64,000 bases of DNA from an uncultured Candidatus Saccharibacteria bacterium (lineage in GTDB: Bacteria > Patescibacteriota > Saccharimonadia > CAILAD01 > BJGX01), in the NCBI GenBank assembly GCA_964552475.1, contig CAZKFZ010000005.1:6224-70223 (forward strand). Reading direction: 5' to 3'. A program made the translations under genes and the position numbers. The stretch's first letter is position 1, and each line of letters opens with the position of its first letter. Below the pieces are notes generated by a model. It was not told the DNA's origin. It saw only the letters and a program-made list of their open reading frames with translations, and searched no databases. Shown here piece by piece: positions 28,665 through 61,117 of this stretch.

Positions 28665-29554
28665 GACAGTTTAGTTAAAATATTTTTTAACTCAGTAGGT
28701 AGGCTAGCCCTAAAAACTTTTAGAGTTTTTGAGGGTAGTTCTAAACTTATTGAGCTAGCATGCAAAAATTGTCGAGTAAATAGACTATCAACTTTTTTGT
28801 TTCCGTATTGTTTGTCGCCTGCAACCGGGTGCCCAATATGTGCAAATTGTACCCTAATTTGGTGTGTACGACCAGTCAAGATTGAAACATCTAGTAAGCT
28901 ATAGCCGTTATATTCCTTAATAAGTTGGTACTCACTTATTGCAGACTTTCCAGAGCTGTGTATGCTCATCTTCTGAGGATTTTTTATACCACGTTTGATT
29001 GGTAACTCAAGTCTAGCACTATCACTATTGGGTCTCCCTACTACTAAAGCTGTATAATGTTTTTTAACTCTTCGCTGTTTAAAAGCTGACAATAAAAATT
29101 CCTTGGCGTGATCGTTTCTTGCCAAAATCATTACTCCAGAAGTGTCTTTATCTAAACGATGTACAATGCCTGGTCTTACTGGGTCATTGTCGTTAATTAA
29201 GTCTTTAAATGCTCCTGCAACTGATGACTGTGGATTATTTGCTGTAGTATAAACTACTAATCCAGCAGGCTTGTTTATAACTAACACATCTTCGTCTTTG
29301 TAAATAATTTTTGGCACTACATCGGGACTAATAAGTAAGCTTAGGGCGTTTATAGTTGGAAGTTCACCATATATTAAAGAGCCATTTTTTAATTTTTCCG
29401 ATGCCTTTACTACCCTTTCATCTACCTTTACGCTACCCGATTGTATTTGTTCTCTCCATCTAGCACGACTAAACTTAGGGTAAACTTCAGCCAATACAAA
29501 ATCTACTCGCTTACCCTCCTGCGCTTCTTGAGCAGTAAAAGAAAAATTTTTCAT
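28661..29554 (-). CDS. RluA-family (RluD-like) 23S rRNA pseudouridine synthase with N-terminal S4 domain
   Basis: Catalytic motif HRLDKDTSGVMILAR and an S4-like N-terminus; 297 aa. Confidence 0.85.
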   Translation of the reverse strand: MKNFSFTAQEAQEGKRVDFVLAEVYPKFSRARWREQIQSGSVKVDERVVKASEKLKNGSLIYGELPTINALSLLISPDVVPKIIYKDEDVLVINKPAGLVVYTTANNPQSSVAGAFKDLINDNDPVRPGIVHRLDKDTSGVMILARNDHAKEFLLSAFKQRRVKKHYTALVVGRPNSDSARLELPIKRGIKNPQKMSIHSSGKSAISEYQLIKEYNGYSLLDVSILTGRTHQIRVQFAHIGHPVAGDKQYGNKKVDSLFTRQFLHASSISLELPSKTLKVFRASLPTELKNILTKLS

Positions 29555-44985: not shown

Positions 44986-45369
44986 TTACTTAATTAAGTG
45001 AATTCCACCAATAATAGGTAGTGGGGTTTTCTTCTTACCTACAGCGTTAACTATACCTATAATAGCTAGTACAAGTACGCCTAGGTAAACGAGCCACATT
45101 AACATCGAGATAATGCTATACAGTCCAAAGCCACCGTATCCTACTGAAGCAATAAAGATCATACCAAGAACAAAATTGACTACCCATAGCACTATCTCTA
45201 ATGCAAAGAGGGTAAGACCTTGTTTGGCGTGGAACTGGGCAAATTCTGAATCTTTTGCTGCTAGTAGAGGTATTAGGCAGAGTATACCTAGGTATGATAG
45301 CACTCCCATTAATACGTCGTTGTCACCACTTGATTTGGTTTTAGTTGCTGGTTGCTTTTCTTCGGGCAT
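44986..45369 (-). CDS. DUF4870-like small membrane protein inserted between rpsJ and rplC
   Basis: LMGVLSYLGILCLIPLLAAKDSEFAQFHAKQGLTLF resembles the DUF4870 signature; 3 TM. Confidence 0.55.
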   Translation of the reverse strand: MPEEKQPATKTKSSGDNDVLMGVLSYLGILCLIPLLAAKDSEFAQFHAKQGLTLFALEIVLWVVNFVLGMIFIASVGYGGFGLYSIISMLMWLVYLGVLVLAIIGIVNAVGKKKTPLPIIGGIHLIK

Positions 45370-45856: not shown

Positions 45857-47041
45857 TTACTTGGTAATTTTAGTTACTACTCCGGCGCCAACAGTCTTAC
45901 CACCTTCACGAATTGCGAATCGCAGACCTTCGTCCATTGCGATTGGGGCAAGTAGTTTTACCTTGATACTAATATTATCTCCAGGCATAACCATCTCGGT
46001 ACCTTCTGGTAGTTCTACTTCGCCAGTAACGTCGGTAGTTCGGAAGTAGAATTGTGGTTTGTAACCCTTAAAGAATGGGGTGTGACGTCCACCTTCGTCT
46101 TTTTTAAGCACGTATATTTCGGCATCAAATTCAGTATGTGGTTTTACACTACCTGGTTTGGCTAGAACCTGACCACGTTCAATATCGTCGCGTTCTACTC
46201 CACGTAGTAATACACCAACATTGTCGCCTGCTTGACCTTCGTCGAGCATCTTTTTAAACATCTCTACGCCAGTTACGACTGTTTTGGTAGTATCTTTAAT
46301 ACCAACAATTTCAACTTCTTCGTTAACATTTACCTTACCTTGCTCAATACGACCAGTTGCTACTGTACCACGGCCTTTAATAGAGAAAACGTCTTCTATT
46401 GGCATAAGGAATGGTTTGTCTAGCTCACGCTTTGGTTCCGGAATATAGTCATCCATAGCTTTTACAAGCTCCATAATAGCTTCTTCGTTAGGACCGTCAC
46501 CCTCTAGTGCCTTAAGAGCAGAACCTTTTACAATAGGGGCATCTTTGTCGTATTCGTATTTTTCTAAGAGTTCGCGAATTTCAACTTCTACAAGCTCAGC
46601 AAGTTCTGGGTCGGCTTGATCCATTTTGTTCATAAATACGATAATTTTTGGTACACCAACCTGTTTGGCCAAGAGTACGTGCTCGCGAGTTTGAGGCATT
46701 GGGCCGTCAGCAGCACTTACTACCAATATTGCTCCGTCAATCTGAGCTGCACCAGTAATCATGTTCTTTACGTAGTCAGCGTGACCAGGCATATCTACGT
46801 GAGCGTAGTGGCGTTTTTCACTTTCGTATTCTTCGTGTGAGGTTGCAATAGTAATACCACGCTCTCGCTCTTCTGGAGCGTTGTCGATAGTAGCATAGTC
46901 AACTGGTTTGTTAATATCGCTAGGAAGTTTTTTTGATAGTACAGTTGTAATTGCTGCAGTTAGGGTAGTTTTACCATGGTCTACGTGACCCATAGTTCCT
47001 ACGTTTACGTGTGGTTTATCGCGCTTATATGATTCGGCCAT
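45857..47041 (-). CDS. tuf: Elongation factor Tu
   Basis: [36 protein letters not shown]; 394 aa. Confidence 0.97.
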
Positions 47042-47179: not shown

Positions 47180-49300
47180 CTACCTCGTACTGGCTTCGCC
47201 AGCCTCACGAGCTGCACTATACTTGGTGCTCAACTCTTCAGCCACGTTGTGAGGCACCTCTGCGTAGTGGTCAAACTCCATAGCATAGCTAGCCCGTCCT
47301 TGGGTCATAGATCGCAAACTTGTGGCATAACCAAACATTTCAGCTAGTGGCACAAACGAGTGAATAATCTTTACACCTGAACGATCTTCCATATTATCTA
47401 CACGGCCACGCTTAGCGTTGATATCACCAATTACATCACCCATAAAATCTTCTGGGGTAGTAATTTCTACCTTCATGAGTGGCTCTAAGATTACTGGCTG
47501 GGCTTTTTTTACACCATCTTGCAAGGCCATAGACCCAGCGATTTTAAAAGCTAGCTCAGATGAGTCAACATCGTGATAACTACCGTCATAAAGTTTGGCG
47601 TGAATATCTACTACGGGGTATCCGGCAAGTACGCCGTTTTGCATGGCTTCAATTATGCCAGCCTCTACGGGCTTAATAAACTCCTTGGGAATGGCTCCAC
47701 CGACAATGGCGTTTTCAAACTCAAATATTTTAGTTTTGTCGTCTTCTTCGGTTTTGACTAGCGGACTAAGCTCTAGATAAACATGACCATACTGACCACG
47801 ACCACCAGATTGACGTACAAATTTACTTTCTACCTGGGCTGTGCCTTTAATGGTTTCGCGATAAGCTACTTGTGGACGACCAACGTTGGCCTCTACCTTA
47901 AACTCGCGCTTCATTCTATCAACAATAACCTCTAAGTGTAGCTCGCCCATCCCATCTATAATAGTCTGGCCCGAGTCTTCGTCGGTGTGAACACGAAATG
48001 TTGGGTCTTCTTCGGCCAAGCGGCTAAGCGCAATACTCATCTTCTCTTGGTCGGCTTTGGTTTTGGGTTCAATAGCAATACTAATAACTGGCTCTGGGAA
48101 GGTAATACTTTCTAAAACTACCGGCTTAGCCACATCGCTTAGGGTGTGCCCGGTAATAGTGGCTTTAAGGCCTACTGCGGCGGCAATTTCGCCAGCGTAT
48201 ACCTCATTTACTTCTTCGCGGTTATTGGCGTGCATACGCACTATACGGCCAATGCGTTCTTTTTCGCCAGTACTAGCATTTAACACATAGCTACCAGACT
48301 TAATTGTGCCCGAATATACTCTAAAGAAAGCTAGTTTACCCACAAATGGGTCGGTGGCTATCTTAAAAGCTAGAGCAGCAAATGGCGCGTCGTCGCTTAC
48401 CTCTAGCACTTTTTCTTCGCCAGTTTTATTATCGATCGCTAGAGGTGGCGTTACATCTAGAGGGCTAGGTAGATATTCGGTCACAATATCAAGTAGTTTT
48501 TCAACAATTACGCCTCGACCGTCACCACCAGATACTATAAAGAAGTCGCCCTTAAGTACACTTTTGCGTATGCAAGTTTTAATCTCTTCGTTGGTTAACT
48601 CGGTACCTTCAAGGTATTTTTCCATTATCGTGTCGTCAGACTCTACCGCAGCCTCTATAAGGTGTTGGCGGTAATTGGTGGCTTTTTCTACCATATCTTC
48701 AGGAATCTCAGACTCTACTAGCTCTTTGTCGGTGTAGTCTTTGTAGGTGTAGGCTTTCATAGCTATTAGATCTACTACGCCATTAATAGCTTGTTCATAA
48801 CCAATTGGTAAATGTATGGGGTAAGCTCGCTTGGTAAGGCGACCGTGAATACTCTCTAAGCTTTTGTAAAAATCGCCGCCGGTTTGGTTAATTTTATTTA
48901 TAAAACAAATGCGTGGAACGCCATATTTGTCGGCCTGACGCCAAACTGTTTCTGATTGTGGCTCTACACCCATTTTACCGTCAAAAACAGTTACAGCACC
49001 GTCAAGTACGCGAAGTGATCGCTCTACCTCTACGGTAAAGTCGATGTGACCAGGAGTATCGATTATATTAATGCGTTTTTTGTTCCAGAAACATGTAGTA
49101 GCCGCGCTAGTAATGGTAATGCCGCGTTCTTGCTCTTGCTCCATCCAGTCCATAGTGGCTTCACCTTGATGAACCTCGCCTATTTTGTGCACTTTACCGG
49201 TACGATAAAGAACTCCTTCAGTTACTGTTGTTTTACCAGCATCAATATGGGCAATAATACCAATATTACGGGTATCTTCTAAGCTATAGTCTCGTGCCAT
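47180..49300 (-). CDS. fusA: Elongation factor G
   Basis: [29 protein letters not shown]; 706 aa. Confidence 0.97.
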
Positions 49301-49478
49301 GGGATTTTAAATTGTCTCCTTTAAATGTTTACTAGAATAATTATTCCAAAATGAAAAAAGCGCCAGTTTTGGCTATTTCTGATTAATTGTAACAATTTGT
49401 CGACTTTTTTACAAGTTGAATATAATATAGCAAATTTTTTAACGATATTAATTTAAAAAAAACAAGTCGTTATGGCTA

Positions 49479-49507
49479 TTGACAGGTTAAAATGCTTATG
49501 CTATTGT
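49479..49507 (+). promoter_or_regulatory. Candidate promoter: -35 TTGACA (49479-84), 17-nt spacer, -10 TATTGT (49502-07), plus strand, reading into the structured RNA region
   Basis: Perfect -35 hexamer with exact 17-nt spacing. There is no ORF downstream for ~400 nt. Confidence 0.4.
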
Positions 49508-49644
49508 TAAATTGAACAGTGTCAACAACAAAAGAGACACAATAGCACCAAAAAAGTTCTGTACATAAATAATTCTCGACAGCACTTTTACTAATTGATA
49601 CAAACATTAAAATCAACACCAAAACATATTTAATGTTTGTGTCA

Positions 49645-49861
49645 TAACAATTGTGCTCTCAGGTGAGAGTTTTTTTATAATCTGGGTTCTTGTTGGTTAT
49701 TATGTGGCAACAGAGTGCAACGAGGGTTCTTAACACAGCCACTAAAGCAAAGATGAGAACCAGAATGCCGTGGACCGGAAGAAGCACTAACACAATGTGG
49801 TGTTTGCTTCTTCCGGCCTCGGCTAACCACATCTCTAAGGTACGCTTTAGAGATTTTTTTG
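49645..49861 (+). ncRNA. Candidate structured small RNA or cis-regulatory leader, GC-rich (~50%) in an AT-rich intergenic region. It contains a 12-bp perfect hairpin (49765-49806) and ends in a strong intrinsic terminator
   Basis: Hairpin 1 (ctctc aggt gagag plus T7) at 49645-49667 overlaps a TATAAT box. Hairpin 2 (ccggaagaagca ...18 nt... tgcttcttccgg) at 49765-49806 is a perfect 12-bp stem. A long-range pairing joins ctgggttct (49671-79) with agaaccag (49746-53). Hairpin 3 (atctctaagg tacg cctttagagat, 10-bp stem with a tetraloop) is followed by T7 at 49855-61. Its class is unknown. Confidence 0.45.
49831..49861 (+). terminator. Strong intrinsic terminator (10-bp stem, UACG loop, T7 run) closing the structured RNA, located 70 nt upstream of the first island gene
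   Basis: atctctaagg tacg ct ttagagat ttttttt, read directly from the sequence. Confidence 0.7.
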
Positions 49862-49932
49862 TACAAAATTAGTTTGACCCAATTCAAAGACTGTGTTAGT
49901 TTAAAACCTACTTCCAAAAGGAGTAGAACCTT

Positions 49933-50380
49933 GTTGAATCGCAAAAAAATACTTATCGGTATAGTTGCTGTCGTATTACTAGCGTTGCCATTTGGAATTC
50001 ATTGGTACGTTGGCTATGAAGCTCGTCATTTTGGTAGAGAAGCTGCTGATGAAGCGGTATCAAGAGCTAATCGCGCCAACTTTGCAGAGAACGAATGGAA
50101 TAAGCTTCTAAGGCTGGCCAGGGATGAAGATTTTAGAACTCTTATTGAGCAACAACTTGCCGAACAGTGTATAGATGCTAACTACATTGTTAGCCTTATG
50201 ATTCAAAGTCAATATGGCGAAACAGATAGTGAGCTTGCTGACATACTAACAGAATTACTACCGGAGCCTGCTTCACCAGAAGAATGTGCTGCCTCTAGTG
50301 GGGATAATCAAGAAGCTCAACCAGATAGTAGCGAGCAAGACACGACCACTACAACTGTCGCCATCTTGCCAGATGACTAA
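49933..50380 (+). CDS. Small membrane-anchored protein with an acidic, low-complexity C-terminus (island gene 1)
   Basis: AAGGAG RBS 7 nt before TTG 49933. One N-terminal TM (ILIGIVAVVLLALPFGIHWYV). The ORF track begins at 49859, inside the terminator, which is unlikely to be the true start. Confidence 0.5.
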
Positions 50381-50386
50381 CCTTAG

Positions 50387-50414
50387 CCCGATCAATCAAG
50401 ATCGGGTTTTTATT
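50387..50414 (+). terminator. Intrinsic terminator after island gene 1
   Basis: cccgatc aatcaa gatcggg followed by tttttatt. Confidence 0.6.
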
Positions 50415-50419
50415 GCTAA

Positions 50420-50839
50420 TTGACTCACTTTGTGCTATTATCGTCGCATTATTGTACCCTGTCAGAAAGTGAGTACTTGTTACACCCAGAGCCAGAAAAA
50501 AAACCTGAAGTTGCAAACAGACCCATATCGCCTAAAGATATCGAATTGTTCCAGCTTGAGTTAAGGTCTGAACAGCTGCTGGCAGAAAGTAAAAATTTGT
50601 TTCAAGATAATTTGGATTCTTTTAAAAGAGTAGGTTATGGTATATTAGCCAATTGGGTGCTTTTTTGTGTAGTCTTTGGTGTTGTCTTGCAAGATATTGG
50701 AGTGATTATTTTTATTACAGCACTGTGTATTGCTATTTATCTCATTATGCATATCGATCATTATCATTTCTATAAACATATCGCCAAGCCAGTTCTTGAT
50801 CTACCAAGCATCTTTGAACTACCTCATGAAAAATCATGA
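50420..50839 (+). CDS. Small membrane protein with a 2-TM C-terminus (island gene 2); start uncertain, possibly TTG near 50468
   Basis: ORF with hydrophobic segments LANWVLFCVVFGVVL and VIIFITALCIAIYLIM. A possible promoter is TTGCTA-17-TATTAT at 50413-50441. Confidence 0.4.
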   Translation: MTHFVLLSSHYCTLSESEYLLHPEPEKKPEVANRPISPKDIELFQLELRSEQLLAESKNLFQDNLDSFKRVGYGILANWVLFCVVFGVVLQDIGVIIFITALCIAIYLIMHIDHYHFYKHIAKPVLDLPSIFELPHEKS

Positions 50840-50844
50840 GGTTT

Positions 50845-51528
50845 TTACTTATATACAAGCTCTACAAAAAACCGTTCTTTTGAGCTCTCTACTAAGTTTG
50901 CTAGCTCAGGCATGCTAGCCATAAAGGGGCTATGGTTAAATTCTTCTCGCCAAGCCCAACTAGCTATACCCGGCTTTTGGGTTTTCTTGATTTCACCGTA
51001 GGGGTTTTTACCATAAAACAAATGAAACATTATCTGACTAACCAGCTCGGTGTTTTCATAGATAGTTATATAACCATCACCACGATGCGAAAGCTCGCAC
51101 TGTAGTCCAGTTTTTTCTTTTAGTTCTCGGTGAGCAGCCTGAGATACCGTTTCGCCCATATGTAGTTTGCCATACACAAACCCAACTTGCTCTATCAAGG
51201 GCTGGCGTTTACGTCTGTAGACTAGCCATTGTCCTTTTTCGTTTTGACAGGTTATAAGAGTCACTATACTTGGTTGTTTACGTGGAGTGTAGTCTTGCAG
51301 ACTCAAGCTATCAGCAAAAACCTTGCCTTCTGGGCTAAGTAAGTACAGTCCGTCTTCATTTTTTACCACCAAACCATCCTTGATAAGCGCATTTAGATGA
51401 TACATGAAGTGATTGCCTTCTACGTCCGAGGGTTTGAGTTTACTGTAACGCAAATAAGGATTGGTAATGAGTTTTGATAGAATGTCTTTTTGGATTCTAT
51501 GAGGCATATACATATGATATATCCACAT
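50845..51528 (-). CDS. Winged-HTH-like N-terminal domain fused to a Nudix hydrolase domain (island gene 3); candidate nucleotide-sensing regulator or enzyme
   Basis: Nudix box GKLHMGETVSQAAHRELKEKTGL (Gx5Ex7REUxEKxGU, one E-to-K substitution). The N-terminal ~75 aa have a wHTH-like pattern (ILSKLITNPYLRYSKLKP...GNHFMYHLNALIKDGLV). Confidence 0.6.
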   Translation of the reverse strand: MWIYHMYMPHRIQKDILSKLITNPYLRYSKLKPSDVEGNHFMYHLNALIKDGLVVKNEDGLYLLSPEGKVFADSLSLQDYTPRKQPSIVTLITCQNEKGQWLVYRRKRQPLIEQVGFVYGKLHMGETVSQAAHRELKEKTGLQCELSHRGDGYITIYENTELVSQIMFHLFYGKNPYGEIKKTQKPGIASWAWREEFNHSPFMASMPELANLVESSKERFFVELVYK

Positions 51529-51704
51529 ACTTCTTTAGTCAATAAACATATTGTATATTCAAATTTGAGTCATTTCAAATAGTAACCATTTATTTTTAGT
51601 TAATCTTTTTGTGTATAAGTACTGTTATTTATTATATTATTGCCAATTTAGAATTAAAATGATATTATAGCTTTCAGTTTTGCACCTACTGTTAGGAGAA
51701 AAGA

Positions 51705-52733
51705 TTGAAAGAGTCACAGTATTATCGTGGCTACAGCCACTTTAAAAATTGTGTATCAGCTTGGTTTGCAGTTCTATTCTTTGTCGGACTAGCTGTTGTA
51801 TCGGGACTTATCTGGAACAACAACAGACTCTGGGGTGATGAGAACAAAGACATTCGAATTGCACAAGCTAATAATGATTTTTGGGCGATGGTTTCGGGGC
51901 AGTTGTCAATTCAAGATAATGTCTATGGGAACTTTGCGAGTGATCTGTATGAATTCACTCAAAAAGACGCTCCAAGCGATGGATTAGTAGAAGTAACTAC
52001 CGACACCATCAATACTCAACAAACCACTCCGGGTTACAACCCTTTGGTGGTAGATTCGCTAGATGAGTTTGTTGCACCGATCGATTTGTATGACGGGTTT
52101 GAAGAAGCAACTGGCATTAATGCCTTTGCCGGAGTGGATGTTTCTGAAGACTCCATAAGAGACGCTGGAAGACTAAAGAGTAGCTTTGTCGACAATGTTA
52201 ATCAGGTAGTCTCTGGAGATAGTACTGGGCTGTTAGAGCAATCAACTAGCCACAAATACACATATTACAGCTGGAATATCTGGCGAGAGTTAGCTGGACT
52301 ATACCTTTTAGTGGGCGTAATAGCTCTACTGCTAGGTGGGGTGCACTTTAGGTGCGATGACTACTACTGTAATAAACCACACTACACTATGTATGGGTGG
52401 TCAAAACCAGCTCATCATACGGGTGCGAAGATCTGGCTAGCAATTCTTTGCCCCATAATGTTTGTACTGTGGCTAGCACTACGGCTGGTTAGTTGGCCGT
52501 TTAGGGTGTTGATAAACTGGATCAACAATCAATACGATATCATTCAAGGTAGAGTTAAAATTAAGAAACAGGGTGATAGCCTTCAAATTTCTACAACAAA
52601 GTTGATTGACGACTTAAGCCTGTACCGAGACAATATAGTTCAGCTTCAACCTCAAAGTGAACAAGAAATTTATCTCGAAGAGATTAACAGACTTATTGAG
52701 ACACTAAAAGCCAACCAACCTCAATCTCTATAA
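51705..52733 (+). CDS. 3-TM membrane protein with a ~190-aa extracytoplasmic domain and a C-terminal coiled coil (island gene 4), GC ~45%
   Basis: AGGAGA RBS 5 nt before TTG 51705; hydrophobic segments at residues ~20-38, ~200-220 and ~250-270. I recognise no motif. Confidence 0.55.
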   Translation: MKESQYYRGYSHFKNCVSAWFAVLFFVGLAVVSGLIWNNNRLWGDENKDIRIAQANNDFWAMVSGQLSIQDNVYGNFASDLYEFTQKDAPSDGLVEVTTDTINTQQTTPGYNPLVVDSLDEFVAPIDLYDGFEEATGINAFAGVDVSEDSIRDAGRLKSSFVDNVNQVVSGDSTGLLEQSTSHKYTYYSWNIWRELAGLYLLVGVIALLLGGVHFRCDDYYCNKPHYTMYGWSKPAHHTGAKIWLAILCPIMFVLWLALRLVSWPFRVLINWINNQYDIIQGRVKIKKQGDSLQISTTKLIDDLSLYRDNIVQLQPQSEQEIYLEEINRLIETLKANQPQSL

Positions 52734-52764
52734 AATGCATTGTAAGCAAAAACCCCGATTAATA

Positions 52765-52793
52765 CTCGGGGTTTTTAACTATCAAAAAACCAC
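52765..52793. terminator. Bidirectional intrinsic terminator
   Basis: aaaaa ccccg attaatact cgggg ttttt. Confidence 0.7.
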
Positions 52794-52800
52794 CGATACT

Positions 52801-52828
52801 GGTGGTTTTTTGATAGTTTATACAGAAT
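52801..52828. terminator. Second bidirectional intrinsic terminator, 3 nt after the rpsG stop
   Basis: aaaaaa ccacc gatact ggtgg tttttt. Confidence 0.7.
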
Positions 52829-52830
52829 GT

Positions 52831-53307
52831 TTAATATCTGGCAAAGTGGGCAAAGGCTTTATTGGCTTCAGCCATCTGGTGAGCATCTTGACGCTTCTTA
52901 ATAGCATCACCTTCGTTGTTGTAGGCATTAATTAGCTCGTTGGCCAATCGCTTATCGAAGCTTTTACCTGATTTATTGCGGGCACTGTCTAGTATCCATA
53001 TGAGTGCATAGTGAGTCTTACGATCACCCTTCACTTCCATGGGCACCTGGTAGTTAGCACCACCAATTCTTTTACTTTTTACCATAACATTAGGACTAAC
53101 GTTTTTTACCGCCGTTTCTAGTACCTCGGCTGGTTCTACCTTGGTTTTTACAGCTGCTTGTTCAATGGCCGAATACACCAATCGTTCTGCGATTTGCTTC
53201 TTACCGTGGTTCATTACCTTGTTAATGGTCTTCGAAACCAAAACACTTTTATAGACGCGGTCTGGTGGTATTACTCTTTTTAGTGATTTTGTAACTTTTC
53301 TTGGCAT
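52831..53307 (-). CDS. rpsG: 30S ribosomal protein S7
   Basis: [21 protein letters not shown]...[36 protein letters not shown]. Confidence 0.95.
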   Translation of the reverse strand: [158 protein letters not shown]

Positions 53308-53316
53308 AACAAACTC

Positions 53317-53739
53317 TTAAGCTTTCTTGGCGCCTTCGCGCTTTGTGCCGTATTTACTTCTACCCTGTTTACGATCTGAAACACCTGCGGTATCTAGTGC
53401 TCCACGCACCACATGATAACGCACACCAGGTAAGTCTTTCACTCTTCCACCACGAATAAGCACTACAGAGTGCTCTTGTAAATTGTGTCCTTCGCCACCA
53501 ATATAAGCAGTAACTTCCATACCGTTAGTAAGGCGCACACGGGCCACCTTACGAAGCGCTGAGTTTGGCTTTTTGGGCGTTTGAGTAAAAACCTTGGTGC
53601 ACACACCACGCTTTAAGGGTGAGTTTAGATTGCTTGAGCGTACTTTTAGAGCATTAAAACTACGAGCCAAAGCTGGTGCTTTGTTCTTTTTGCCTTTGCT
53701 AGCTCTAGGCTTTCTAATTAGTTGATTTATAGTCGGCAT
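53317..53739 (-). CDS. rpsL: 30S ribosomal protein S12
   Basis: [12 protein letters not shown]...[19 protein letters not shown]... Confidence 0.95.
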
Positions 53740-53801: not shown

Positions 53802-56800
53802 TCAAGCTTCTTCTCTTTCACTAAAACCTGTACCTACTGGAATGAGTCTACCAATAATCACATTCTCTTTAAGACCTCGTAGCTTGTCTTGTTTACCACG
53901 CATGGCTGCAGATATTAGCACTTTAGTGGTTTCTTGGAAACTTGCTGCAGAAAGCCAACTATCTGAACTTGTTGATATCTTAGTAATTGGCATTAGAAGA
54001 TTTTCAAAGCTAGCTGGTTTACCCTTACCCTCTTTGGCTTTGGTATTTTCTTCTATTAGCGCTGCTCGAGAAACAATATCTCCAGATATAAACTCGGTGT
54101 CCGCAGGTTCTTCAATCCGAACTCTTGAGAACATCTGTCTTATTATCACTTCAATATGTTTAGCAGCGATAGTCTGACCTTGACTTAAGTAGATTGCTTG
54201 AACTTCGTCAATAATATATCTTTGAACAGATTCTTCACCTTGAAGCTTGAGCATATCTTGAAGATTTACCGAGCCTTCGGTTAGACGCTGGCCAATCTCT
54301 ACTCGATCACCATTTTTTACTTCTACAGAGGTGTACTCGCTTGTAGTATATTGGCGAGTGTTACCGCTATCGTGAGTAAGCACTATTTCATCCTTTTCAA
54401 CCGTTACTGTGCCTATTCCACCTGCTTTAACAGTCTTTTTACCATCGGCAGAAATAGCCAATACCTGCGAGCGCGTTACCTGCACACCTGTTTTCACTTT
54501 TGGTTTCATATCTTTTAGCGGATAACGAGTTATCTTTTGATCATCAGGAACAATACTAATAACTTGTTTGGTGTCTTTTTTGGTAATCTTTGCTGTACCT
54601 GCTATTTCTGAGAGTATTGCCTGTCCTTTAGGAGCTCGGGCTTCGAATATTTCCTCTACTCGAGGTAGACCCTGAGTAATATCTCCGCCAATACCAGTTT
54701 GGTGCTTTGTGTCCATGGTTAGCTGCGTTCCTGGCTCACCAATACTCTGGGCAGCCATAATACCTACCGCCTCACCCAACACAACAGGATCACCCTTGGC
54801 TAAGTCAATACCATAACACTTCTGACAAAGTCCCCACGCACTTCTACATTTTAGAATTGAGCGAATTCTAATACTTTCTAGCTCTAAATCTTCAATACGA
54901 CGAGCTGCAGTATCTGAAATTAACTGACCTTTTTTTACAATTACTTCAGATGTCTTAGGATCGATAACTTTCTCCATAGAAGTCCTACCAACTATCCAGG
55001 CTGATAAGCCCTCTTCTCCGGTTGCAATTGCTTCTGCTCGACTCATTACATAACCTTCTTTGTCACCACAATCGTTTTCAGAAATAACAATGTCTTGAGC
55101 GACATCGACAAGACGTCTAGTAAGATATCCAGATTCCGAAGTACGTAGTGCAGTATCGGTTAAACCTTTTCGAGCACCGTGAGTAGATATAAAGTACTCA
55201 AGTACACCCAGCCCATCTTTGTAATTAGATCGAACAGGTAGTTCAATAACTCGCCCAGCAGGACTAAGCATTAAGCCAAGCATACCACTCATCTTGTTTA
55301 TTTGTCCCAAGCTCGCACGAGAACCAGATTCTAAATCGTCCTGCAAAGTTGAACTTGAATTTGCCAAGGTTTCGCCAAGTAGAGCTTCAATGTCTTCACC
55401 GACCTTTTTCCAGGTTTCCACGGTACGTGCGTATCTTTCATTGTTGGTAATAAGACCCTGTTGATATTGTCCAACATACTCCAAGACCTTAGATTCACCC
55501 TCTTTGATTAGTCGACCCCGATCTTCTGGCACTACTAAATCATCCATGCCAATTGATATACCAGACTGGGTAGCATACTTAAAACCAAGATCTTTGATGT
55601 CGTCTACTAAATTAGCTGTGGCTTCTTGGCCGTGCTCTGTAAATACTTCAGCCATAATCTTCTGTAGACTAGATTTTACTAATGTGTCGTTTACATAGCT
55701 CATATTTTCTGGCAAAATTTCATTAAAGAACACTCTACCTACGGTAGTATCTTCAATTTTATCCTTAACTCTTACCTTTACCATAGCTCGTAGATCTATA
55801 TGGCCTTCTTGATAGGCCATAATAGCTTCAGCGGTATCACTAAATACCTTACCCTCACCGTTTAAGCCTGGTTTAGTGCCAGTCAAGAAAAAGCAACCTA
55901 ATACAACGTCCTGACTAGGCTTAACTACCGGCTCACCGCTAGACGGTTTTAGCAAGTTGTGCTTAGACAACATTATTTCTCTTGCTTCTTTTTGAGCAGC
56001 TTCAGAGAGAGGTACATGTACGGCCATTTGATCACCATCAAAGTCGGCGTTAAAGGCAGTACATACCATTGGGTGTAATTGAATAGCCTTACCTTCTATA
56101 AGGATAGGTTTAAAAGCTTGTATACCAAGTCTGTGTAGGGTTGGCGCTCTATTGAGTAATACGTATTTGTCAGCAATGACCTCATCAAGGGTGTCCCAAA
56201 CTTCACTACGTGCTCGTTCAATCATGCGAGTAGTTGATTTTACATTGTGTGCAATACCTTTTTCTATTAGCTTACCTATTACAAATGGCTTAAACAGCTC
56301 AAGGGCCATCATTTTTGGCAATCCACATTGGTCGAGTTTTAGGTGGGGTCCAATAACAATTACCGATCTACCAGAGTAGTCTACACGTTTACCAAGTAGG
56401 TTTTGACGAAATCTACCTTGCTTACCTTTTAGTAGGTCGGTAAGGCTCTTAAGTTTTTTACGGCTACCGGCTGCAGAAACCGCTCTATCGCGACGAGCAT
56501 TATTATCTATTAACGCATCAACAGCTTCTTGAAGCATACGTTTTTCGTTTCTACAAATAACTTCTGGAGCTTCTAGAGCAAAAAGTTTCTTAAGTCGGTT
56601 GTTTCGATTGATTACACGGCGATATAGATCATTAAGATCAGAGGCGGCAAAACGCCCACCGTCTAGCTGAACCATTGGTCGAAGATCTGGTGGTATCACA
56701 GGCAGGTTGGTGGTTATCATCCAATCGGCTTTGATGCCAGATTGTACCATGCCCTCAATAAGCTTGAGTCTTTTAAGGGCTTTTTTCTTCTTCTGACCTA

Positions 56801-57590
56801 CCGACTCATCAGCTTCTATGCGTAATTTTTTAGCGAGTTCAGCCAAGTCGATATTCTCTAGTAATTGTTGTAATGCTTCTGCGCCAATACCTGCTCTAAA
56901 AACTTGACCAAATTTCATGTTTAGCTCACGATAACGACTTTCTGGTAAGAGTTGGTGTGGAGCTAGGTTTGTAAGATCTGTCTTTGCGCTTGTGTAATTT
57001 GCATCTAGCTCTTCAAGCTCTTGAGCGGCTTCGTCTGGTATAATGTCTGCCTTAGAGCCCTTAAGATTATATTTTTTCAAGATATCTTTATGTTTGCTTT
57101 CGAAATCATTCTTTAAATCTTTCAAGGCAGCAGCTTTTGCATCCTCATCTACGTCGGTTACGATAAAATTAGCAAAATAAACCACTCTTTCTAAATCTCT
57201 AATACCAACGTTTAGAACGAGACTAATAGGACTAGGTGTACCTCTTAAGAACCATATGTGAGCAACCGGAACCGAAAGGGCAATATGTGCCATACGTTCT
57301 CGTCTTACAATGCTGCGAGTCACTAATACACCACATTTATCACATTCTATACCTTTGTAGCGAATACCCTTGTACTTACCACAGTAACATTGCCAGTCTT
57401 TGGTGGGTCCAAATATCTTTTCGCAAAACAATCCGTCTTTTTCAGGTTTTTGTGTTCGATAATTAATGGTTTCTGGTTTTGTAACTTCACCATGCGACCA
57501 ATCTAATATGTGCTCAGGACTAGCTACTGATAGCTTAATGGCATCAAAGTCGATTATTTGGGGTTCGTGTATCATGTTTTCGTTATTCAT
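53802..57590 (-). CDS. rpoC: DNA-directed RNA polymerase beta-prime subunit
   Basis: [16 protein letters not shown] catalytic motif and Zn-finger [21 protein letters not shown]; 1262 aa. Confidence 0.97.
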
Positions 57591-57592
57591 CT

Positions 57593-60500
57593 CTATACCT
57601 CTTCCGATTCTATTTCATTTTTTAGTTCTGCCTCTGCCAATGTTGCAAAGTCATCCTCCGACTTTGAATCCCCTAAGTCAACCACAGCTTCATTTTCAAC
57701 GGGTGTTTGACCAGACAAAAGTTCGTCGTTACCAAGATCAACTGCTTCTTCTTCTGTAGCACTAGATATGAGTGATTCTGCATCTATCGAGATAGACTGA
57801 GAACTTCTTTCCAGGTCTACAACCAAGGTAAGGCTTTGTAGTTCTTTTACTAATACATTAAACGATTCAGGTACGCGAGGGCCTTTTATATCTTCGCCCT
57901 TTATGATAGATTCATAGGCTTTTGATCGGCCAATAACGTCGTCTGATTTAATGGTTAGAATTTCTTGCAGGGTATTAGATGCCCCATAGGCCTCGAGAGC
58001 CCAAACTTCCATTTCTCCAAAGCGTTGTCCGCCCATTTGAGCCTTACCACCGAGTGGCTGTTGAGTAACCATCGCGTATGGGCCAGTAGACCGTGCGTGA
58101 ATCTTGTCGTCTACCATATGTTGAAGTTTCAACATGTATTTTACACCAACTGTAGTGCGGTTGGCATATGGTTCGCCAGTATAGCCCGAGTAAAGCTGGG
58201 CTTTCCCATCCTCTGGCAATCCAGCTTTTTTAAGTTCGGCTTTAATTTCGTCTATCTTAACACCATCAAACACCGGGCTAGCAATTTTATAACCGATAGC
58301 GCTAGCTGCCCAACCTAGGTGGGTTTCGAGGATCTGACCCAAGTTCATTCTAGAACCAACACCCAAAGTGTTTAAGATAATATCTACCGGGGTACCATCT
58401 TCTAGATGTGGCATATCTTCTACCGGCATTATCTTAGAAATAACCCCTTTGTCACCATGTCGTCCGGCCATTTTGTCACCTACTTGTATCTTACGCAGTT
58501 CCGCAACAGCAACATATATCTGAAGAGATACGCCAGCTGGTAAGTCGTCGTCATTTTCGCGTGATAATATTTTTACATCTACAACTTTACCCGTTGCGCC
58601 GTTAGGCATTCTTAAGCTAGTGTCTTTTACATCGCGGGCTTTTTCACCAAATATTGCGCGTAACAAACGTTCTTCACTAGACAATTCAGTCTCACCTTTA
58701 GGAGTAATTTTACCCACCAAAATATCTCCGGCTCCCACCTCGGCTCCAATTCTTACAATCCCTTCTTCATCTAGATCTTTTAAGCTTTCTTCGGAAACAT
58801 TAGGTATATCACGTGTTACAACTTCTGGACCAAGTTTGGTGTCGCGAACGTCTATTTGGTGTGTTTCGATGTGTATGCTAGTATATCTGTCGTCTTGCAC
58901 TAAGCTTTGGGAAACGATAATTGCATCTTCAAAGTTTAGCCCTTCAAAAGGCATGAAAGCTACAAGAACATTTTGTCCTAGAGCTAATTCGCCTGCCTGA
59001 GTACTCATACCATCTGCCAGTACATCACCTTTTTTAACTTTTTGACCGGATGATGCTACGGCTTTCTGATGAATACAGCTACCTTGGTTAGATCTCACAA
59101 AATTTGATAATTCGTATGTTTTTAGCCCAAGCTTGTTGTATTTCACACTAACAGCCTCAGCAGTTGAAGAAACTACCTGACCATCGGCTTCGGCCAAAAT
59201 AACCTGTCCGGAGTCTACAGCAACGGTACCTTCAATGCCTGTACCAACTACAGGTGAGTCTGGGCGTACCAGAGCCACTGCTTGACGTTGCATATTTGCA
59301 CCCATCAAAGCTCGTTTTGCATCATCACTTTCTAAGAAAGGAATTAGGCTAGCTGACACCCCTACAGTCTGCTTGCTAGTAACATCCATATACTCAACGT
59401 TGTCGGCATCTTCTTCATCGGCTTCACCGCCAATTCCTCTTACTGCTATACGTTTTTCTACAAAATAACCTTCTTTGTCGGTAGAAGTATTAGCTTGAGC
59501 AATTACGGCCTTTTCTTCGTCGCTGGCATCGAGATAGATGACTGTAGATGTTACGCGAGCCTTCACGGGTACGGCTTCAATGCCTGATGATTTTAGTTGT
59601 TTAGCTAGTGTAGTCGTAATTTTATCGCCAGCCTTAACTATTACTTTGCCTTTTTTGTCTTTTACTTGAGTTCTTGCTATTTCACCTACAGATTTTTCCG
59701 GAGCGACGGAGTTAATAACTTTTAGATAAGGACTTTCTAAAAATCCATACTCATTTACCTGCGCATAAGTTGCAAGTGTACTCACTAAACCAATATTTGG
59801 TCCTTCTGGAGTTTCGATAGGGCAAATTCGACCATAGTGAGTACGATGGACATCACGTACTTCAAAACCAGCACGTTCACGGTTGAGCCCACCAGGTCCC
59901 ATAGCGTTGAGTCGTCTTTTGTGTACTATCTCGGCGAGCGGATTGATTTGATCCATAAACTGACTAAGTTGGTGTGAGGCAAAAAATTCCTTAACACTTG
60001 CTACAATGGGCCTAACATTCACTAGCTGGGCCGGCTGAATAGTGTCGGGATCAGCAAGACTCATGCGGTCTTTAACAATACGCTCCATTCGCAAAATACC
60101 TACTCTAAATCTCGACTGTATAAGTTCACCAACCATTTTGAGTCTGCGATTACCAAGGTGGTCTATATCCTCAGTAGGAGCATTTTCATTACTCATTCGA
60201 ATAACTTCTTTTACTATGGCTACAAAATCTTCACGTCTTAAAATTCTATTTTCTGGAGTGTTTTTAACATTTAGTCCAAGACGTTTATTCACCTTGTATC
60301 GTCCGACTTTTGAAAAATCATACCGTTTATAATCAAAAAACATACCGTCTATTAAACTTTTGGAGTTTTCTACAGTAGCTAGATCGCCCGGTCGAATACG
60401 TCTATAAACTTCCATTAAGGCTTCGGCGGTCGTACTACTAGGGTCTTTAGCTATTGTTTCATCTATAAACTTAACCTCGCCTGTATCAACGTCGGCAAAC

Positions 60501-61117
60501 AGTTCTTTAATTTCTTTATCACTTCCGTATCCAAAAGCTCGTAAAAGTGCGGTTACAGCAATCTTACGTTTTCTATCAATCTTCACACTCATTACACCAT
60601 TTTGGCCAGTTTCTAACTCCAACCACGCCCCACGATTAGGAATAATTTTGGCACCAAAATAACTAGCATTATTATCGCGCGTAAAAAATACGCCCGGAGA
60701 GCGCACCAACTGACTAACTACTACTCTTTCTACACCATTAATAATAAAGGTACCGCGATCGGTCATAATTGGATAATCACCCATGAATATCTCCTGGGTT
60801 TTAACCTCGCCGGTTTCTTTATTAACGAGTTCTGCACTAACTTTGAGCGATGCTTCGTAGCTAATGTTTTTGTCTTTCGTTTGTGCTTTGGTAAATTTAG
60901 GTTTTTCAAAGTGGTAGTCTTTGAAACTAAGAGCATATTTTTTGCCAGTGAAGTCCTCTATTGGAGAAAGTTCGGCAAACAGTTCTTTAAGACCTTCGTC
61001 TACAAACCAATCGTAGGCGTCAGTTTGAATTTTTATTAAATTAGGAAGTTCAAGTAGTTCTTTGTTTTGGTGTAAAAAAATACGCGTGTTCGCGGGGGCT
61101 TTTTGCATGTTTCCCAT
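57593..61117 (-). CDS. rpoB: DNA-directed RNA polymerase beta subunit
   Basis: Conserved [13 protein letters not shown] and RFGEMEV segments; 1174 aa; abuts rpoC with a 2-nt gap. Confidence 0.97.

What the first reader, a model, noticed from the sequence alone, without database searches (positions are those of the whole stretch)
49479..49861. Promoter-driven, highly structured GC-rich RNA upstream of the island: unclassified sRNA or riboswitch-like leader
The sequence shows a near-consensus promoter, TTGACA-17-TATTGT, at 49479-49507. Downstream there is no ORF with an RBS for ~400 nt. A weak hairpin plus T7 at 49645-49667 overlaps a TATAAT box. A GC-rich ~180-nt segment follows, containing a perfect 12-bp hairpin (49765-49806), a long-range helix (49671-79 with 49746-53) and a terminal 10-bp stem with a UACG tetraloop and a T7 run (49831-49861). 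The first island gene starts 70 nt later. The promoter-aptamer-like-terminator-gene layout is the classic riboswitch or attenuator arrangement. Alternatively it is a stand-alone sRNA. Short stretches resemble motifs I recall from SRP RNA (CCGGAAG-AAGCA) and from the RNase P J11/12 region (GCAACAGAGnGCAA). The overall architecture fits neither, so the class is open.
Basis: seen in the sequence. Interest (0 to 1): 0.65.

Follow-up and report, generated by a model that had tools for sequence, protein, structure and literature searches.

The report
Unclassified two-part small RNA gene in Saccharibacteria
The flagged stretch is a real, conserved gene for a non-coding RNA with its own promoter and two terminators; it occurs in only some members of one Saccharibacteria clade, matches no known RNA family and is not a riboswitch for the gene that follows it.

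Summary
The features are real: a near-consensus promoter (49479-49507), no conserved ORF, two terminators on the + strand, and a very stable fold. Three sets of coordinates are about 10 nt off.

The window is from a Saccharibacteria (CPR) genome. The element lies in a hypervariable island inserted between rpsG and fusA. I found it in five lineages (EF-G 93-100% identical). There, neutral sites in fusA are near saturation, but the RNA keeps its promoter, helices and loop motifs. It has compensatory changes, and 26 G-U pairs against 1 A-C, which fixes the + strand.

It has two modules that always occur together. The 5' module is a hairpin, a single-stranded UAGCACC stretch and a ~110-nt rod ending in terminator T1. 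The 3' module (P1, a 23-25 bp P2, terminator T2) is GC-richer.

Rfam gives no hit, so SRP RNA, RNase P RNA and 6S RNA are excluded. The riboswitch or leader reading is not supported. Three unrelated genes follow the RNA, each with its own promoter-like site. One of them sits beside fusA without the RNA in a sister lineage. Four lineages at 93-95% EF-G identity lack the RNA.

Best reading: an accessory stand-alone sRNA gene of a new family, partner unknown. Transcription is not shown.

The parts
49479..49507 (+). Promoter of the RNA: -35 TTGACA (49479-49484), 17-nt spacer, TGc extension (49499-49501), -10 TATTGT (49502-49507). Predicted start about 49514-49516.
   Evidence: scores it 10 of 12 with TG. 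The -35, the spacer AAAATGCTTATGC and TA(T/A)TGT are conserved in all five lineages. In L085, L102 and L110 the -10 is TAATGT, only 3 of 6 to consensus, but the TG extension is kept. That is why one search does not list it.
49519..49540 (+). 5' hairpin Ha: GUGUC (49519-49523) pairs with GACAC (49536-49540).
   Evidence: MFE folds. The equivalent hairpin in L110 and L102 is GGGUCA/UGACUU, and in L081 it is GCG..AGUG/CGCU..CGC. Its 5' arm overlaps a - strand TTGACA (see the last part), so its conservation has two possible causes.
49543..49570 (+). Single-stranded linker with the conserved UAGCACC (49543-49549). Candidate interaction site.
   Evidence: It is unpaired or weakly paired in all folds. 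TAG(C/T)ACC is conserved in four of the five lineages (L081 reads TCGCACC; GYACC is shared by all five). The role as a seed is inference.
49565..49678 (+). Long rod hairpin of the 5' module. S1 is AAUUCUC (49571-49577) with GAGAGUU (49665-49671). S2 is AGCAC (49581-49585) with GUGCU (49653-49657). The tip is hairpin H0, 49596-49611 with 49629-49644. The rod contains the local terminator hairpin T1 (49655-49670) and ends in U7 (49671-49677).
   Evidence: I2; T1. S2 and S3 are built from different sequences in different lineages: AGCAC/GUGCU against UCGAGA/UCUCGA, and UUGCUA/UAGCGA against AGUCA/UGACU. The H0 stem AUACAAACAU/AUGUUUGUAU is invariant. T1 is predicted in L085 and L110 as well.
49681..49764 (+). 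P1 domain. The outer helix is 49681-49694 with 49752-49764. The inner helix is GUGGC (49704-49708) with GCCAC (49738-49742). The apical hairpin carries the conserved GUGCAACGRRG (49715-49725).
   Evidence: Of 11 outer-helix pairs, 7 are invariant and 3 change on one side through G-U. The inner helix has 3 pairs with compensatory changes. GTGCAACG is invariant in five lineages.
49767..49823 (+). P2: a long, nearly regular hairpin of 23-25 bp that includes the perfect 12-bp arms 49775-49786 and 49805-49816. The loop is AAYGNS-like.
   Evidence: (I7). Helix 4 has 24 pairs and 98.3% of cells paired. A-U to G-U and C-G to U-A changes keep the pairing.
49831..49860 (+). Terminator T2: a 10-bp stem with UACG loop (49831-49854) followed by U6 (49855-49860).
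   Evidence: Three of its 9 modelled pairs show compensatory changes (CUCUAAGG/CUUUAGAG against CUCCAAUA/UAUUGGAG), and 100% of cells are paired. It is predicted in L085 and L110.
49874..49902 (+). Separate promoter-like site for island gene 1: TTGACC (49874-49879), 17 nt, TGt-TAGTTT (49897-49902). It is not part of the RNA, but it bounds it.
   Evidence: My reading. GTTTGAC is conserved after T2 in window, L081, L110 and L085. In L085 the scan tool calls TTGACA-17-TAGAAT with 11 of 12. L102 has TTGCTA-17-TATAAT instead. The window site is below the scan tool's threshold, so this is inference.
49498..49525 (-). Promoter-like site on the fusA strand that overlaps the RNA promoter: TTGACA-16-TAGCAT. 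It may explain the very conserved spacer of the RNA promoter.
   Evidence: window. The same element, TTGACC-16-TAGCAT, is found in L085 and L110. Function not tested.

Best explanation
This is an accessory, stand-alone non-coding RNA gene of a new family, restricted so far to one clade of Saccharibacteria.

A single sigma-70-type promoter (49479-49507) would start transcription near 49514. The transcript has two modules that are always found together.
- Module A (about 49514-49677, ~165 nt) is a 5' hairpin, a conserved single-stranded UAGCACC stretch, and a ~110-nt rod hairpin. The base of the rod is the weak terminator T1.
- Module B (about 49681-49860, ~180 nt) is the branched P1 domain with a conserved GUGCAACGRRG apical hairpin, the 23-25 bp P2 helix, and the strong terminator T2.

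Three lineages have no promoter-like site between T1 and P1. Module B is therefore most likely made by read-through of T1, which would give a short (~165 nt) and a long (~350 nt) isoform.

I infer that the RNA acts in trans, by base pairing through its conserved unpaired motifs or by binding a protein through the invariant H0 stem and the long P2 helix. It does not control the gene after it.

Shown: the sequence features, their conservation, the strand, the lack of coding potential, and independence from the downstream gene.
Inferred: transcription, the two isoforms, and action in trans. The partner is unknown.
For: - Anatomy: the promoter and two + strand terminators are present, with 2 terminator-like sites against 0.2 expected. 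Fold z-scores are -6.1 for module B and -3.5 for module A.
- Homologues: a covariance model finds the RNA only in window, L081 (=L082, L083), L084/L110, L085 (=L086, L096) and L102.
- Selection: between these lineages, fusA 4-fold degenerate sites are 39-52% identical. Module A is 47-79% identical and module B 59-75% in the same comparisons, and the promoter is 84-100% identical.
- Structure: 95.4% of 261 cells are paired, against 36-49% when partners are slid. 7 pairs have compensatory changes.
- Strand: 26 G-U cells against 1 A-C cell, so 95.4% of cells pair on the + strand and 85.8% on the - strand. Module A folds well only on the + strand.
- Module A rod: it is rebuilt from different sequences in different lineages.
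- Not coding: the 57-aa - strand ORF has no homologue among 1.84 billion representatives. No frame is conserved on either strand.
- Not a leader: three unrelated downstream genes follow it, each with its own promoter-like site. The homologue of the L102 downstream gene lies 167 nt from fusA without the RNA in L087.
- One unit: the H0 pattern and the module B model co-occur in every RNA-positive locus and in no other of the 113 loci then held. No promoter-like site lies between T1 and P1 in L085 or L110.
Against: - There is no expression data, so transcription, the start site and T1 read-through are predictions.
- Only five lineages are available, and they fall into about three sequence groups. 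The covariation is real but thin, and the shuffle control can be inflated by relatedness.
- The H0 stem and most P2 pairs never vary, so they say nothing about pairing. They could be conserved for another reason.
- No target or protein partner was found. A scan of start regions in the window gave nothing beyond what 103 trials would produce.
- In the window and in L081 a TATAAT or TATTAT sits between T1 and P1, so module B could have its own weak promoter there.
- In three lineages the -10 of the main promoter matches the consensus at only 3 of 6 positions.
Confidence: 0.6

Rival explanations
1. It is a cis-regulatory leader (riboswitch or attenuator) of the first island gene. A ligand or protein decides between termination at T1 or T2 and read-through into 49931.
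For: The layout promoter, structured RNA, terminator, gene is the classic one. The T1 region has two mutually exclusive foldings, a local hairpin or a long rod with the conserved UUCUCGA segment.
Against: - The downstream gene differs: the gene-1 family in window, L081 and L110; an unrelated 110-aa protein in L085; an unrelated 81-aa protein in L102.
- Each downstream gene has its own promoter-like site after T2.
- The homologue of the L102 gene is present without the RNA in L087.
- On inspection, nothing competes with the T2 stem, which is 100% paired with compensatory changes.
- Both foldings of T1 leave a stem directly before the U-tract.
- There is no Rfam riboswitch or leader hit.
Confidence: 0.07
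2. It is mainly a transcriptional insulator. A block of hairpins and U-tracts stops transcription from the island and from fusA from running into each other, and any RNA made has no function of its own.
For: It lies between divergent units in an island inserted into the highly expressed str operon. It holds two terminators, and the rod has an A-rich 5' flank and a U-tract, as bidirectional terminators do. A fusA-strand promoter-like site overlaps its promoter.
Against: - A dedicated, conserved near-consensus promoter drives it.
- Unpaired motifs (UAGCACC, GUGCAACGRRG) are conserved while neutral sites are near saturation.
- G-U pairs make the helices good on the + strand only.
- Sister lineages with the same divergent layout manage without it.
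Confidence: 0.1
3. It is the RNA part of a toxin-antitoxin or defence module in the variable island: a type I antisense pair with the 57-aa hydrophobic ORF, or a type III-like RNA antitoxin for the following small protein.
For: - It sits in a hypervariable island of small orphan genes.
- The promoter, RNA, terminator, small gene order resembles type III systems.
- A hydrophobic 57-aa ORF lies antisense in the window.
- Its presence is patchy among close relatives.
Against: - The 57-aa ORF is not conserved in frame, start or hydrophobicity, and it has no homologue.
- The RNA contains no tandem repeats.
- The downstream proteins vary and have their own promoter-like sites.
- No PADLOC hit was found apart from a weak Nudix match.
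- No gene is shared by all RNA-positive islands and absent from RNA-negative ones.
Confidence: 0.08
4. It is a divergent housekeeping RNA (SRP RNA, RNase P RNA, 6S RNA or tmRNA) that standard models miss in CPR bacteria.
For: Short stretches recall SRP RNA (GGACCGGAAGAAGCA) and RNase P RNA (GUGCAAC). Models built on other phyla can perform poorly on CPR RNAs.
Against: - No Rfam match was found even at E<=10, and ARAGORN finds no tmRNA.
- CCGGAAGAAGCA is an arm of a regular helix supported by covariation, not a GNRA-capped helix with SRP loops.
- On reading the sequence I did not see the conserved RNase P core motif GGAAAGUCC; I ran no search for it.
- The three-hairpin layout is not the 6S rod.
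- The RNA is absent at this locus from lineages with 93-95% identical EF-G, and from 80 more distant fusA loci.
Confidence: 0.03

Closest known systems
Generic bacterial trans-acting sRNA genes with their own promoter and an intrinsic terminator (for example RsaE/RoxS-type sRNAs of Firmicutes)
   Same: It has its own sigma-70-type promoter, a 5' hairpin, conserved unpaired motifs, a terminal stem-loop with a U-tract and no ORF. It lies between protein genes and is restricted to one lineage.
   Different: No sequence or structure match to any Rfam family. The transcript is bipartite with an internal terminator. P2 is unusually long and regular. No target is known. Whether CPR bacteria have an sRNA chaperone was not examined here.
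sRNAs made as short and long isoforms by a regulated internal terminator (Enterococcus EutX, Listeria Rli55, SreA-type riboswitch sRNAs); comparison from my own knowledge
   Same: One promoter, an internal terminator (T1), then a further structured RNA with its own terminator (T2). The T1 region has two alternative foldings.
   Different: No recognisable aptamer precedes T1. Both foldings still place a stem before the U-tract. Read-through is inferred and not shown.
Bacterial small SRP RNA (RF00169)
   Same: The string GGACCGGAAGAAGCA resembles GGUCCGGAAGGAAGCAGC of E. coli 4.5S RNA (the latter recalled from memory).
   Different: Here GGAA is inside a perfect helix rather than a tetraloop. 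There are no symmetric or asymmetric loops, no covariance-model hit, and the RNA is not universal among close relatives.
Type III toxin-antitoxin loci (ToxIN-like)
   Same: The order is promoter, structured RNA, terminator, small gene.
   Different: There is no repeat array. The downstream gene varies and has its own promoter-like site. There is no endoribonuclease-like toxin.

Membership tests
Riboswitch / transcription-attenuation leader | An aptamer or leader of a described class | tested here: not met
   Rfam 15 gave nothing at gathering score. At E<=10 there were only weak miRNA, snoRNA and leader noise hits, all far below their cut-offs.
Riboswitch / transcription-attenuation leader | Constant association with one downstream gene or pathway | tested here: not met
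   Three unrelated downstream genes follow it in five lineages. The L102-type gene occurs without the RNA in L087.
Riboswitch / transcription-attenuation leader | A terminator that competes with an alternative (antiterminator) pairing, with the downstream gene depending on read-through | tested here: inconclusive
   On inspection T2 has no competing sequence, and the downstream genes have their own promoter-like sites. T1 does have an alternative pairing (rod against local hairpin), but what lies beyond T1 is RNA and not a gene.
Bacterial SRP RNA (RF00169 / RF01854) | A match to the covariance model | tested here: not met
   No hit at gathering score or at E<=10.
Bacterial SRP RNA (RF00169 / RF01854) | Helix 8 capped by a GNRA tetraloop, with conserved symmetric and asymmetric internal loops | tested here: not met
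   CCGGAAGAAGCA pairs perfectly with UGCUUCUUCCGG, and the pairing is kept through changes in other lineages. The apical loop is a 6-nt AAYGNS.
RNase P RNA | A match to the covariance model, and the conserved core motifs | tested here: not met
   No Rfam hit. Only GUGCAAC is shared, and I did not see the core motif GGAAAGUCC when reading the sequence; no motif search was run.
6S RNA | A single long rod with a central bubble whose 5' and 3' ends pair; a match to the covariance model | tested here: not met
   No Rfam hit. The fold is a series of separate hairpins, with no conserved pairing between the two ends.
Stand-alone bacterial sRNA gene (generic class) | Its own promoter and its own intrinsic terminator, conserved in relatives | tested here: met
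Stand-alone bacterial sRNA gene (generic class) | Conserved structure with compensatory changes, and no conserved ORF | tested here: met
   for structure and strand. for coding.
Stand-alone bacterial sRNA gene (generic class) | A detectable transcript of defined ends | not testable with these tools
   No transcriptome data are available here.
Stand-alone bacterial sRNA gene (generic class) | An identified target or protein partner | tested here: inconclusive
   The complement of the conserved loop is not enriched in the window: 6 matches against 9.2 expected. The best duplex with a start region is -18.2 kcal/mol among 103 tried, and it could not be checked in relatives.
Type I toxin-antitoxin | A conserved small hydrophobic toxin ORF overlapping or next to the RNA | tested here: not met
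   The 57-aa ORF at 49659-49832 (-) is not conserved in frame or start, and it has no homologue.
Type III toxin-antitoxin | A tandem array of RNA repeats before a toxin gene | tested here: not met
   There are no tandem direct repeats in 49300-53000. The downstream genes vary.

The most novel reading that the evidence does not exclude
The locus is a regulated isoform switch. The 5' module is a sensor for a protein or small molecule. Its invariant H0 hairpin and conserved UUCUCGA segment choose between the local T1 hairpin and the long rod. That choice sets how much polymerase reads on to make the structured P1-P2 RNA. This would be a new kind of attenuator-controlled sRNA in the reduced genomes of CPR bacteria. 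It might be coupled to fusA expression through the overlapping divergent promoters.
Probability: 0.12. Interest if true: 0.6.

Novelty: new member of a known kind. Interest (0 to 1): 0.4.

Why it matters
Saccharibacteria and other CPR bacteria have very small genomes and few recognisable regulators. My literature searches found no described sRNA for them.

A conserved, promoter-driven, structured RNA that comes and goes among close relatives would be a concrete entry point for studying RNA-based regulation in these epibionts. It sits in a hypervariable island inside the str operon, next to fusA, so it also bears on how such islands evolve.

It gives a defined candidate for a new Rfam family: about 350 nt, five lineages, and a model in hand.

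The claim is modest. It is a new family of an ordinary kind of gene, its function is unknown, and its range is narrow so far.

Tried and rejected
- Rfam at gathering score on the whole window, and at E<=10 on 49300-49950: only tRNAs elsewhere and noise here.
- Coding on the - strand: the 57-aa hydrophobic ORF has no homologue in 1.84 billion representatives, and its frame and start are not conserved. The + strand 60-aa ORF is broken in relatives.
- Sequence search (nhmmer) and covariance-model search of 80 fusA loci from the genome collection: nothing. The best EF-G there is only 70% identical.
- Exact look-up of the window's own EF-G: not on record.
- Metagenome scan with CCGGAAG-N20-32-CTTCTTCCGGNCTCGG: 7 stretches. 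Only one was a true match, on a contig I already held.
- Viral contigs: the P2 pattern gave 0 hits. The H0 pattern gave 43 hits, and all 22 I read lie in unrelated sequence, 11 of them one conserved repetitive stretch that looks coding. None of the 43 matches the model. I found no link to phages.
- Local target search: neither the complement of the conserved loop nor a duplex scan against 103 start regions gave a convincing result.
- Pairing of H0 with the fusA leader: I considered this from the sequence. The complementary 7-mer is not kept in L085, so I dropped it (inspection).
- Long-range pairing between the two modules: alifold found only 3 pairs.
- MAFFT plus alifold on the 5' module misaligns its variable helices. 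I used per-lineage folds instead.
- Pfam, NCBIfam and PADLOC on the island proteins: only the Nudix domain matched.
- Literature: nothing on sRNAs of Saccharibacteria.

Full report
**Where the finding lies.** The window carries, on the - strand, rpoB/rpoC (53802-61117), rpsL (53317-53739), rpsG (52831-53307), fusA (47180-49300), tuf (45857-47041) and the S10 operon. Between rpsG and fusA there is a 3.5-kb island with four genes:
- a 149-aa protein whose N-terminal stretch looks hydrophobic (gene 1, 49931-50380, +);
- a 139-aa protein (+);
- a Nudix-domain protein with a roughly 85-residue N-terminal extension that matches no family (50845-51528, -);
- a 342-aa protein (+).

Only the Nudix domain matches any family. 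The finding occupies the 630-nt spacer between the start of fusA and gene 1. The closest EF-G sequences that carry a name are from Candidatus Saccharibacteria, at 88-89% identity. In the species-level genome collection the best match is only 70%.

**Check of the observation.** All the described features exist.
- The promoter TTGACA-17-TATTGT is at 49479-49507, and a TG precedes the -10.
- Two terminator-like sites lie on the + strand, at 49655-49670 (plus T7) and 49831-49854 (plus T6). Shuffled sequence gives 0.2 on average.
- The perfect 12-bp inverted repeat is at 49775-49786 and 49805-49816.
- The long-range helix is 49681-49694 with 49752-49764.

The segment 49671-49861 folds at -71.5 kcal/mol, z = -6.1. 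The reverse strand also folds well (z = -5.9), so energy alone does not give the strand for this part. The 5' half (49513-49678) has z = -3.5 on the + strand and -0.9 on the - strand.

**Known families.** Rfam 15 finds only four tRNAs elsewhere in the window at gathering score. At E<=10 in 49300-49950 it finds only weak matches far below their cut-offs. ARAGORN finds no tmRNA. The recalled SRP RNA and RNase P RNA motifs therefore do not hold up. CCGGAAGAAGCA is simply one arm of the long P2 helix.

**Relatives.** Homologues of gene 1 and close EF-G relatives led to contigs with the same neighbourhood. I built covariance model R1 from three sequences and searched every locus fetched.

| EF-G identity to window | Loci | RNA found by R1 |
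|---|---|---|
| 100% | window 49678-49866 | yes |
| 98% | L081 (=L082, L083) | yes |
| 95% | L101 | no |
| 94% | L085 (=L086, L096) | yes |
| 94% | L102 | yes |
| 93% | L084/L110 | yes |
| 93% | L087-L090 | no |
| 93% | L103-L105 | no |
| 93% | L112-L113 | no |
| 90% | L106-L109 (no island at all) | no |
| 89% | L091-L093 | no |
| 58-70% | 80 more distant fusA loci | no |

A metagenome scan returned only the L085 contig again. Viral contigs gave nothing related.

**Selection.** Between the RNA-positive lineages, 4-fold degenerate sites of fusA are only 39-52% identical, which is close to saturation. In the same comparisons module A is 47-79% identical, module B is 59-75%, and the promoter is 84-100%. 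The -35, the spacer, the TG extension and TA(T/A)TGT are kept in all five lineages.

**Structure and strand of the 3' module.** On the five-sequence alignment, 95.4% of 261 pair cells are standard pairs. With the partners slid by 1-3 columns, the figure is 36-49%. Seven pairs show compensatory changes; two of 500 shuffles reached that count and none reached the covariation score. The sample amounts to only about three sequence groups, so this is supportive rather than conclusive. Twenty-six cells are G-U and one is A-C. The helices therefore pair at 95.4% on the + strand and 85.8% on the - strand. Together with the U-tracts, this fixes the + strand.

**Structure of the 5' module.** Per-lineage folds agree on three elements:
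- a 5' hairpin (Ha);
- a weakly paired linker holding UAGCACC;
- a long rod.

The base of the rod pairs (A)AUUCUCG with UGAGAGUU(U). The invariant H0 hairpin (AUACAAACAU/AUGUUUGUAU) forms its tip. The middle helices of the rod are made of different sequences in different lineages: AGCAC/GUGCU against UCGAGA/UCUCGA, and UUGCUA/UAGCGA against AGUCA/UGACU. That is covariation, although MAFFT could not align it. The rod and the local T1 hairpin exclude each other, but either one leaves a stem directly before the U-tract.

**One unit.** H0 and the 3' module always occur together and never apart in the 113 loci then held. In L085 and L110 the scan predicts both terminators but no promoter-like site between T1 and P1. 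Module B is therefore most simply explained by read-through of the weak T1. The window and L081 do have TATAAT or TATTAT in that gap, so a secondary promoter there cannot be excluded.

**Not coding.** ORFs of 57 aa (-), 89 aa (-) and 60 aa (+) overlap the region. The hydrophobic 57-aa ORF looked like a possible type I toxin. It has no homologue among 1.84 billion representative proteins. In L081 and L084 its start, its C-terminal half and its hydrophobicity are lost, because indels shift the frame.

**Not a leader of gene 1.**
- In L085 the RNA is followed by an unrelated 110-aa gene, and in L102 by an unrelated 81-aa gene.
- The homologue of that 81-aa gene lies 167 nt from fusA in L087, with no RNA.
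- After T2, four lineages keep GTTTGAC, then 17 nt, then a TAGnnT or TAATTT box. L085 scores 11 of 12 there. L102 has TTGCTA-17-TATAAT.
- The T2 stem is 100% paired with three compensatory pairs, and on inspection nothing competes with it.

**What it most likely is.** It is an accessory sRNA gene of a new family. The conserved unpaired motifs (UAGCACC; GUGCAACGRRG in a hairpin loop), the invariant H0 stem and the 23-25 bp P2 helix are the candidate contact sites for a target RNA or a protein. I could not identify the partner. No island gene is present only where the RNA is present.

One further observation may matter. A promoter-like site on the fusA strand (window 49525-49498, TTGACA-16-TAGCAT) overlaps the RNA promoter and is kept in L085 and L110. 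This could explain the very conserved spacer, and it could link the two transcription units by competition. I did not test this.

**Verdict.** The element is a new member of an ordinary kind of gene. It is of moderate interest because of the organisms it comes from and because of its two-module build. Transcription and function remain to be shown.

Noticed in passing
window 49931-52733, with L081, L085-L093, L101-L113: The rpsG-fusA junction is a hypervariable island in this Saccharibacteria clade. A Nudix gene with an N-terminal extension of unknown family is always present. Around it are changing sets of small orphan genes and sometimes an AAA_28 ATPase. A relative with 90% identical EF-G (L106-L109) has rpsG directly followed by fusA.
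   Followed up: partly
window 49301-49414 (- strand): The fusA promoter (TTGTAA-17-TGtTACAAT, 49414-49386) and its roughly 80-nt leader are almost invariant across lineages whose synonymous sites are near saturation. The leader is not unusually structured (z = -0.4). It contains GCCAAAACUGGC followed by GCUUUUUU. It may be a regulatory leader of fusA.
   Followed up: partly
window 49498-49525 (- strand); L085 3844-3871; L110 3815-3842: A promoter-like site on the fusA strand (TTGACA/C-16-TAGCAT) overlaps the -10 and spacer of the sRNA promoter and is conserved. The two promoters could compete with each other.
   Followed up: no
window 28688-28759 (+): ARAGORN calls a 'tRNA-Stop' with anticodon tta. 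Rfam gives no tRNA match here even at E<=1, and the site overlaps the junction of two - strand ORFs. It is probably a false positive.
   Followed up: yes
window 52748-52818: Two hairpins lie back to back, a 14-nt one (93% complementary) and a perfect 18-nt one, between rpsG and the 342-aa island gene. The T-runs beside them make them look like terminators for the converging genes.
   Followed up: no
window 44986-45369 (-); L081 5042-5425: A small gene of the MamF_MmsF membrane-protein family is inserted between rpsJ and rplC in the S10 operon. It is conserved in relatives, and in some of them other extra genes (an ABC ATPase, an FMN-dependent dehydrogenase) sit in the same gap.
   Followed up: no
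L117, L119, L120, L122-L124, L126, L128, L132, L140, L153 (viral contigs): ATACAAACAT-N42-ATGTTTGTGT recurs at a fixed 62-nt span inside a conserved, repetitive stretch that looks protein-coding, in many IMG/VR contigs (19 hits share the span; I read 11). It is unrelated to the sRNA. It is a reminder that the H0 pattern alone is not specific.
   Followed up: yes
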